Shown here: piece after piece, positions 52,470 to 52,861 of the stretch
Layout of the letters: every line of letters begins with the position of its first letter
Numbering within the stretch: the stretch's first letter is position 1
Origin: Escherichia coli
Lineage (GTDB): Bacteria > Pseudomonadota > Gammaproteobacteria > Enterobacterales > Enterobacteriaceae
Reading direction: 5' to 3' (one strand)
Assembly: GCF_017348835.2 (NCBI RefSeq)
Contig: NZ_CP071375.1
Length of the DNA: 64,000 nt
Translations under genes and position numbers: made by a program
The notes under the pieces: model-generated
Database searches by the model: none
The model's input: the letters and a program-made list of their open reading frames with translations, nothing else
What the model was told of the DNA's origin: nothing

Positions 52470-52861
52470 GCTTTTGTTCTCCTTGTAGGATGTTAATAAT
52501 ATGTGGCATAAGCGTTAAATGTAGGGGTATTGGCAGTTTTGTTTAGTATTTGGGCGACAGATCACGCAAAAGTAGAATTGTGCAAATAAACGGCAGGGTA
52601 ATTTTTGAAGGTCAGCAACAAAAGTTGATTAATTCTTTGAGGAACATGTAGTTATGCATGCTGTTGAAAAAGAGGAAGATACTGACTAACTCTAAAGTGG
52701 TATTTTACATGCACTTACAATTGATTAAAGACAACATTCACAGTGTGGTTATTTGTTACACATAGGGGCGAGCAATGTCATGACAGTGTAGGTGCGGTTA
52801 CTGTCGTGAAAAAAAATAAAAACCGCCATTGCAACAATGGCGCAATTCGGATGAAGCCCCT

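What the first reader, a model, noticed from the sequence alone, without database searches (positions are those of the whole stretch)
52470..52861. Divergent acs / nrfA control region with a candidate FNR half-site
The 390-bp region between acs (minus) and nrfA (plus) is AT-rich and carries TTGAT-TAAA-GACAA at 52721..52734, a partial match to the FNR consensus TTGAT-N4-ATCAA, about 130 bp upstream of the nrfA ATG. The nrf promoter is known to depend on FNR and NarL/NarP, and the acs promoter on CRP; I could not assign the other sites confidently by eye.
Basis: partly seen in the sequence, partly recalled or inferred. Interest (0 to 1): 0.2.

Follow-up and report, generated by a model that had tools for sequence, protein, structure and literature searches.

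The report
Known FNR site of nrfA promoter

Summary
The window carries the E. coli acs / nrfA divergent intergenic region (52470..52861, 392 bp, 38% G+C). It is 100% identical to strain PE164 and differs from K-12 MG1655 at two bases.

TTGATTAAAGACAA sits at 52721..52734 as reported. On its own the match is weak: it fits 8 of 10 consensus positions, and there are 59 equally good matches in the window against 34 expected.

Position and conservation settle it. Godfrey et al. 2017 place position +102 at the third base of nrfA codon 3, which puts pnrf +1 at 52769. Four further statements in that paper agree with this. The motif centre (52727.5) is then exactly -41.5, the published FNR site. TAACTCTAAAGTGGTA (52687..52702) is exactly -74.5, the published NarL/NarP site.

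The block from 52687 to 52734 is 91-99% conserved across 29 distinct enterobacterial nrfA upstream regions, while the DNA further upstream is only 37% conserved.

On the acs side, published promoter sequences put the acsP2 start at 52489 and the acsP1 start at 52693. CRP-like sites then fall at -69.5 and -122.5 from acsP2.

Verdict: observation confirmed, interpretation supported, already known, low interest. Side notes are an annotated 18-codon ORF (ytcB) over the FNR site and two covarying hairpins in the nrfA leader.

The parts
52467..52469 (-). acs start codon
   Evidence: ORF 50511..52469 on the minus strand; annotated as acs in an identical E. coli record.
52489..52489 (-). acsP2 transcription start (C, 20 nt upstream of the ATG)
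   Evidence: The promoter sequence ending at the start site in Olvera et al. 2009, Table 1, matches the minus strand here. The aerobic sigma-70 ChIP peak of Myers 2013 maps to about 52488 (the coordinate conversion is partly from memory).
52496..52501 (-). acsP2 -10 hexamer TATTAT (-12..-7)
   Evidence: Read from the sequence. Five of its six positions are invariant and the sixth is nearly so in 23 distinct species sequences.
52551..52566 (.). CRP I site of acsP2, centre -69.5 (minus strand CGTGATCTGTCGCCCA)
   Evidence: Consensus scan: 3 mismatches, centre -69.5. RegulonDB v8 names a proximal -69.5 CRP site at acsP2. The '-93 A' that Kinnersley 2009 places in CRP I is 52562, the A of CGTGA. 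The block is strongly conserved.
52604..52619 (.). Probable CRP II site of acsP2, centre -122.5 (TTTGAAGGTCAGCAAC)
   Evidence: Weak match, 4 mismatches, centred exactly at -122.5. The -122.5 position is from my memory of Beatty et al. 2003, which I could not read. That two CRP sites exist is confirmed.
52640..52655 (.). Conserved near-palindrome AACATGnAGTTAT; probably the shared IHF site (pnrf IHF II, about -127)
   Evidence: A conservation island, 70% identity against 37% for its surroundings. The assignment to IHF rests on remembered positions only. The window's T at 52649 (C in K-12) is at a freely varying position.
52687..52702 (.). NarL/NarP 7-2-7 site TAACTCT-AA-AGTGGTA, centre -74.5
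   Evidence: The published centre is -74.5. The scan gives 2 mismatches to TACYYMT-NN-AKRRGTA, centred at -74.5. 94% conserved across species.
52693..52693 (-). acsP1 transcription start (224 nt upstream of the acs ATG)
   Evidence: Olvera et al. 2009, Table 1, sequence and the -224 position. Godfrey 2017 places the weak divergent acsP1 within -87..+10 of pnrf and reports that FNR represses it.
52703..52720 (.). Conserved spacer between the NarL/NarP and FNR sites; region of IHF I, and by memory of the NsrR target
   Evidence: 92% conserved. IHF I is a published repressing site displaced by NarL/NarP. Its exact base position, and the NsrR site, are from memory only (Browning 2010 is not held).
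52721..52734 (.). FNR site TTGAT-TAAA-GACAA, centre -41.5 of pnrf and -34.5 of acsP1
   Evidence: for the sequence; for the position. TTGAT is kept in 28 of 29 distinct orthologous regions and the ACAA of the right half in all 29. The FNR ChIP-seq peak is assigned to nrfA with a site at -41.5.
52747..52761 (.). Fis I site GGTTATTTGTTACAC (centre -15)
   Evidence: Godfrey 2017: Fis I overlaps the -10 element, and position -7 lies just outside it. The 15-mer fits the Fis consensus GNNYRNNWNNYRNNC at every specified position by my reading. The consensus and the -15 centre are from memory.
52754..52762 (+). pnrf extended -10: TG-T-TACACA (-15..-7)
   Evidence: The EHEC difference at -7 (A to T) maps to 52762. 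The -14 G is the extended -10 base.
52769..52769 (+). pnrf transcription start (+1, C)
   Evidence: Derived from +102 = 52870 and checked against the +1 C, +4 G, -7 and -14 statements. The anaerobic sigma-70 ChIP peak maps to about 52773.
52778..52809 (+). nrfA leader hairpin 1
   Evidence: Predicted fold. 11 pairs, 4 with compensatory changes, across 23 species.
52824..52842 (+). nrfA leader hairpin 2 (reads as a terminator-like hairpin on the minus strand)
   Evidence: 8 pairs, 3 with compensatory changes. The many G-U cells fit the + strand RNA.
52862..52871 (+). nrfA start codon and CsrA GGA motif (GGA at 52869..52871; +102 = 52870)
   Evidence: Godfrey 2017, CsrA section; sequence.
52709..52765 (+). 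18-codon ORF annotated as ytcB (b4821) in MG1655, overlapping the FNR site and the -10 element
   Evidence: Annotation of NC_000913.3. Translation is MHLQLIKDNIHSVVICYT*. The start codon is ATA in 14 of 29 orthologous regions.

Best explanation
This is the well-studied shared control region of the divergent E. coli acs and nrfA operons. TTGATTAAAGACAA at 52721..52734 is the single mapped FNR site of the nrf promoter (pnrf).

Under anaerobiosis an FNR dimer binds this site, centred at -41.5 and overlapping the -35 region. This is the class II arrangement. FNR recruits RNA polymerase to a promoter with a poor -10 element (TG-n-TACACA) that starts at 52769.

NarL or NarP binds at -74.5 (52687..52702) and raises expression in response to nitrite by displacing IHF from an adjacent repressing site. 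Fis bound over the -10 element represses the promoter in rich medium. CsrA acts on the GGA motif at the start of nrfA.

The same FNR site lies at -34.5 of the weak divergent acsP1 promoter (start 52693), so bound FNR shuts acsP1 off.

The main acs promoter, acsP2 (start 52489), is activated by CRP bound at -69.5 and, probably, -122.5.

Shown here: the coordinates, the sequence matches and the cross-species conservation. Taken from the literature: protein binding and the regulatory effects.
For: Identity of the locus:
- 100% identical to E. coli PE164, and present in 5413 of 5426 complete E. coli genomes.
- Two base differences from MG1655, at 52649 and 52814, neither in a core site.

Anchoring of +1 at 52769:
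- Five independent statements in PMC5434802 agree with it, together with the alignment.
- The published centres -41.5 (FNR) and -74.5 (NarL/NarP) then coincide exactly with the two motifs.

Function, from the literature:
- pnrf activity falls from 5119 to 54 units in an fnr mutant.
- Purified FNR shifts the -87..+10 fragment and represses acsP1.
- An FNR ChIP-seq peak is assigned to nrfABCDEFG with a site at -41.5, and anaerobic and aerobic sigma-70 peaks map next to pnrf and acsP2.

Conservation in 29 distinct enterobacterial regions:
- FNR left half 99%, right half 91%, NarL/NarP site 94%, against 37% for the upstream flank.
- The site sits 131-140 bp from the ATG in nearly all regions.
- The block is kept even where acs is not the neighbour.
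- The 76-bp core is at least 99% identical in 3978 of 5414 E. coli records.

The acs side:
- Start sites from PMC2759082.
- CRP I at -69.5.
Against: - The motif alone is not statistically distinctive.
- The primary mapping papers (Tyson 1994; Browning 2002, 2005; Beatty 2003; Browning 2010) are not held. Positions therefore come from later papers, one of them from the same laboratory, plus my own anchoring.
- The exact base positions of CRP II, the IHF sites, NsrR and the Fis I centre rest on memory.
- Godfrey 2017 prints the EHEC -10 element as TATACT, whereas the O157:H7 sequence I aligned reads TACACT. This is a small discrepancy and probably a misprint.
Confidence: 0.96

Rival explanations
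1. The FNR-like 14-mer is a chance match. Its conservation would then reflect other overlapping functions: IHF I, NsrR, the -35 region of acsP1, or the ytcB reading frame.
For: - Matches of this quality are common (59 in the window).
- The site is overlapped by acsP1 promoter elements and by an annotated 18-codon ORF.
Against: - The centre coincides to the base with the published -41.5 site.
- Expression depends on FNR, and FNR binds the fragment.
- There is a ChIP-seq peak.
- The block stays conserved where acs is absent and where the ytcB start codon is lost.
Confidence: 0.02
2. The site is used mainly by CRP, the paralogue of FNR with a related consensus, to control acsP1 or nrfA.
For: - The CRP and FNR consensus sequences are related.
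- A second FNR-like match at 52605..52618 coincides with the probable CRP II site.
- acs is CRP-dependent.
Against: - The 14-mer has TTGAT, not TGTGA. No CRP-consensus window centred on the FNR site's axis (52727.5) comes within 4 mismatches; the only overlapping CRP-like hit, 52727..52742 (3 mismatches), is centred 7 bp away at pnrf -34.5.
- The published CRP sites belong to acsP2 and lie 170 and 115 bp away.
- pnrf activity depends on fnr.
Confidence: 0.02

Closest known systems
E. coli K-12 pnrf (nrfA promoter): a class II FNR-activated promoter modulated by NarL/NarP, IHF, Fis and CsrA
   Same: - The sequence from -87 to +10 is identical to K-12.
- The FNR site is at -41.5 and the NarL/NarP site at -74.5.
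- The -10 element is TACACA with an upstream TG, and +1 is a C.
   Different: There are only two single-base differences from MG1655: T for C at 52649 (-120) and A for C at 52814 (+46). Both lie outside the core sites. The window does not carry the EHEC O157:H7 -7 T change that makes pnrf partly independent of FNR.
E. coli acsP2 and acsP1 promoters (CRP-dependent class III activation; Fis and IHF anti-activation)
   Same: - Start sites are at -20 and -224 from the ATG.
- The -10 element is TATTAT, and CRP I is at -69.5.
- The sequence is identical to K-12 over acsP2 and CRP I.
   Different: None seen in the mapped elements. The positions of CRP II, Fis and IHF were not verified from a source I could read.
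Salmonella and Citrobacter nrf promoters
   Same: The NarL/NarP and FNR sites, the Fis I region, the -10 region and both leader hairpins are conserved.
   Different: - These genera carry about 40 extra bp upstream of the NarL/NarP site (intergenic region 431-436 bp).
- The right half of the FNR site is often AACAA, which is closer to consensus.
- Many have ACATACAC where Escherichia has ACATGCAC.

Membership tests
Class II FNR-activated promoter | A 14-bp inverted repeat resembling TTGAT-N4-ATCAA | tested here: met
   TTGAT-TAAA-GACAA matches 8 of 10 positions, with a perfect left half. The match alone is not above chance.
Class II FNR-activated promoter | Site centred near -41.5 relative to the mapped transcription start | tested here: met
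   +1 = 52769 from the +102 anchor plus four consistency checks. The site centre, 52727.5, is then -41.5.
Class II FNR-activated promoter | FNR occupies the site and transcription depends on fnr | not testable with these tools
   From the literature: a 95-fold drop in an fnr mutant, a gel shift with FNR DA154 and a ChIP-seq peak.
Class II FNR-activated promoter | Site conserved in orthologous promoters at a fixed distance from the core promoter | tested here: met
   TTGAT is kept in 28 of 29 regions and ACAA in all 29. No gaps lie between the site and the -10 element in 28 of 29 regions.
NarL/NarP 7-2-7 target | Two inverted TACYYMT heptamers separated by 2 bp | tested here: met
   TAACTCT-AA-AGTGGTA, one mismatch per heptamer, centred at -74.5 as published. 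94% conserved.
CRP-dependent acsP2 promoter (class III) | Proximal CRP site at -69.5 from the acsP2 start | tested here: met
   The start is at 52489. The site at 52551..52566 has 3 mismatches and its centre is at -69.5. The -69.5 position is named, and the -93 A in CRP I.
CRP-dependent acsP2 promoter (class III) | Distal CRP site (about -122.5) | tested here: inconclusive
   A weak match (4 mismatches) is centred at -122.5. The published position is from memory only, because the primary paper is not held.

The most novel reading that the evidence does not exclude
Nothing about the FNR site itself is new. The most novel reading left open concerns the 93-nt nrfA leader inside the same region.

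Its two hairpins (52778..52809 and 52824..52842) are kept by compensatory changes across Escherichia, Citrobacter, Salmonella, Trabulsiella and relatives. They could form a cis-acting RNA element whose role has not been described. Possibilities include a platform that sets access for CsrA or RyhB, or a control point for transcript stability or elongation.

Godfrey et al. 2017 state that the role of this long conserved leader is unclear.
Probability: 0.3. Interest if true: 0.3.

Novelty: already known. Interest (0 to 1): 0.05.

Why it matters
It matters only as a check on the scan. A reader without tools picked out, from a weak 8-of-10 match, the site that thirty years of work on the nrf promoter had mapped. 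The region is a textbook case of signal integration at a bacterial promoter: oxygen through FNR, nitrite through NarL/NarP, nutrient quality through Fis and CsrA, and carbon through CRP on the acs side. No new biology follows from the finding.

Tried and rejected
- Consensus scan as a significance test. The FNR consensus with up to 2 mismatches is too common (59 hits) to support the call on its own.
- Sigma-70 consensus scan. It found no promoter in 52400..52950. That fits pnrf and acsP2 being activator-dependent with poor core elements, but it gave no help with mapping.
- Rfam search of 52300..53100. Nothing came near a gathering score.
- IHF consensus scan (WATCAANNNNTTR, up to 1 mismatch). 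It found nothing in the region, so I could not place the published IHF sites from sequence.
- Primary papers (PMC180988, PMC2897348, PMC101899). They are not held.
- Hairpin 2 as a terminator. I considered that the hairpin at 52824..52842, with its T-run on the minus strand, is a real terminator. I rejected this as the main reading. Across species the stem is kept through G-U pairs on the + strand, which would be A-C mismatches on the minus strand. The minus-strand fold is also unremarkable (z = -0.75).
- ytcB coding as the cause of conservation. I rejected this because the start codon is lost in 14 of 29 regions while the DNA block stays conserved.
- Literature search for E. coli ytcB. It found nothing.

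Full report
**What is there.** The stretch 52470..52861 lies between a 652-codon ORF on the minus strand, whose start codon is at 52467..52469, and the nrfA ATG at 52862. The 392 bp are 100% identical to E. coli strain PE164. That record annotates acs-yjcH-actP on one side and nrfABCDE on the other. The region is present in 5413 of 5426 complete E. coli genomes. It differs from K-12 MG1655 at two bases: 52649 (T for C) and 52814 (A for C). It differs from O157:H7 at one further base, 52762. Its G+C content is 38.3%, against 50.7% for the window. TTGATTAAAGACAA is at 52721..52734, centred 134.5 bp upstream of the ATG.

**Is the motif more than chance?** Not on its own. The consensus TTGAT-N4-ATCAA with up to two mismatches has 59 matches in the 64-kb window, against 33.8 expected, and two of them lie in this intergenic region. 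The identification has to rest on position and conservation.

**Position of the nrf promoter.** Godfrey et al. 2017 (PMC5434802) state that the nrf promoter has a single FNR site centred at -41.5 and a NarL/NarP site at -74.5. The paper gives enough detail to place +1 in window coordinates.
- The p+102A substitution converts the arginine codon AGG of nrfA to AGA. The third base of codon 3 is 52870, so +1 is 52769.
- Base 52769 is a C, and the paper says the K-12 start is a C.
- Base 52772 is a G, and the paper says +4 is a G.
- The only EHEC difference is stated to be at -7, and the O157:H7 difference falls at 52762.
- -14 is the G of an extended -10 motif, and 52755 is a G preceded by T.

The 7-2-7 sequence TAACTCT-AA-AGTGGTA at 52687..52702 is centred at exactly -74.5.

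**Functional evidence from the literature.**
- pnrf activity is 5119 units in the wild type and 54 in an fnr mutant.
- Purified FNR shifts the -87..+10 fragment, helps RNA polymerase to bind, and represses the divergent acsP1 promoter.
- Myers et al. 2013 list an FNR ChIP-seq peak for nrfABCDEFG with a site at -41.5.
- Their supplementary tables give an FNR peak and anaerobic and aerobic sigma-70 peaks in the acs/nrfA region. I converted these to window coordinates using the MG1655 v3 annotation and the v2-to-v3 shift of 1977 bp, which is from memory. They fall at about 52745, 52773 and 52488. Those positions are next to the FNR site, the pnrf start and the acsP2 start.

**Conservation.** A scan of one genome per species with NrfA as query returned 32 loci from Escherichia, Citrobacter, Salmonella, Trabulsiella, Intestinirhabdus, Enterobacter, Entomohabitans and Serratia.
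- In nearly all of them a TTGAT-N4-[G/A]ACAA site lies 131-140 bp upstream of the nrfA ATG.
- In an alignment of 29 distinct upstream regions, identity to the window is 99% for TTGAT, 91% for GACAA, 94% for the NarL/NarP site and 92% for the spacer between them. It is 37% for the DNA upstream of the NarL/NarP site.
- There are no gaps between the FNR site and the -10 element in 28 of the 29 regions.
- The block is kept in Trabulsiella and in Enterobacter sp. BIGb0383, where acs is not the neighbour. It therefore belongs to nrfA.
- Within E. coli, the 76-bp core from the NarL/NarP site to the -10 element is at least 99% identical in 3978 of 5414 records, and 95-99% identical in the rest.

**The acs side.** Olvera et al. 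2009 print the promoter sequences ending at each start site.
- acsP2 starts at the C 20 nt upstream of the ATG (52489, minus strand).
- acsP1 starts 224 nt upstream of the ATG (52693, minus strand).
- The acsP2 -10 element is TATTAT at -12..-7 (52496..52501).
- A CRP-like site at 52551..52566 is centred at -69.5. RegulonDB names this position for the proximal CRP site.
- The '-93 A' that Kinnersley et al. place in the first CRP site is 52562, the last base of the CGTGA half-site.
- A weaker CRP-like site at 52604..52619 is centred at -122.5, where I recall the second site to be. I could not read the primary paper.
- All these elements are conserved in the 23 distinct sequences (the window plus 22 loci) in which acs is adjacent.
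- The FNR site is centred at -34.5 relative to acsP1. That explains the published repression of acsP1 by FNR.

**Other sites.** The paper says that Fis I overlaps the -10 element and that -7 lies just outside it. The 15-mer GGTTATTTGTTACAC at 52747..52761 is centred at -15 and fits the Fis consensus as I remember it. The base positions of IHF I-III, Fis II-III and NsrR could not be verified from sources I could read. An IHF consensus scan found nothing.

**Side observations.**
1. MG1655 annotation places an 18-codon gene, ytcB (b4821), at the equivalent of 52709..52765. That is wholly upstream of the pnrf start and lies over the FNR site and the -10 element. The frame is intact in the window. 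The ATG is ATA in 14 of 29 orthologous regions. I found no paper on the E. coli gene.
2. The 93-nt nrfA leader folds into two hairpins.
   - In 23 species, 95.9% of cells pair and 7 of 19 pairs show compensatory changes.
   - No shuffle of 500 reaches the observed covariation score, and slid controls pair at only 25-65%.
   - Hairpin 2 looks like a terminator on the minus strand. However, the frequent G-U pairs fit the + strand RNA.
   - The authors call the role of this leader unclear.
   - CsrA and RyhB are already known to act on nrfA translation.

**Verdict.** The feature is the textbook FNR site of pnrf within a thoroughly characterised control region. Novelty: already known. Interest: low.

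Noticed in passing
window 52709..52765 (+): An 18-codon ORF (MHLQLIKDNIHSVVICYT*) is annotated as ytcB (b4821) in MG1655. It lies entirely upstream of the pnrf start and covers the FNR site and the -10 element. No transcript that would carry it is evident. Its ATG is ATA in 14 of 29 orthologous regions.
   Followed up: partly
window 52778..52809 and 52824..52842 (+): Two hairpins in the nrfA 5' leader are conserved with compensatory changes in 23 species: 7 of 19 pairs, and 0 of 500 shuffles reach the observed score. The published work calls the role of the leader unclear.
   Followed up: partly
window 52808..52842 (-): Hairpin 2 followed by a T-run reads as an intrinsic terminator on the minus strand, pointing from nrfA into the control region. 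G-U pairs on the + strand argue against a minus-strand role. The window's A at 52814 (C in K-12) makes the run uninterrupted.
   Followed up: partly
window 52649 and 52814: These are the only two differences from K-12 MG1655 in the intergenic region: T for C at pnrf -120, inside a conserved near-palindrome but at a freely varying position, and A for C at +46.
   Followed up: partly
L006-L022 and others, about 50-90 bp upstream of the FNR site: Citrobacter, Salmonella arizonae and Intestinirhabdus carry roughly 30-40 extra bp between the conserved AACATGnnGTTAT block and the NarL/NarP site (intergenic region 420-436 bp against 392-393 bp in Escherichia). This matches the insertion reported for S. 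Typhimurium.
   Followed up: partly
L023, L024, L026 (Trabulsiella, Enterobacter sp. BIGb0383): The NarL/NarP-FNR block and both leader hairpins are conserved upstream of nrfA although acs is not within 2.5 kb. The pairing of acs with nrfA is therefore not universal.
   Followed up: no
whole window: FNR-consensus matches with up to 2 mismatches number 59, against 33.8 expected, and none of 100 shuffles reaches 59. The excess is unexplained and may reflect oligonucleotide or codon bias.
   Followed up: no
E. coli genomes: Four copies of the region lie on records labelled as plasmids. In strain SWYHX138.33gt the intergenic region is split into two places (52% cover), which suggests an insertion or rearrangement in the control region.
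   Followed up: no
window 52757..52762 compared with L002: Godfrey 2017 prints the EHEC -10 element as TATACT. The O157:H7 genome I aligned reads TACACT, a single A-to-T change at -7 from the K-12 TACACA. This is probably a misprint.
   Followed up: yes
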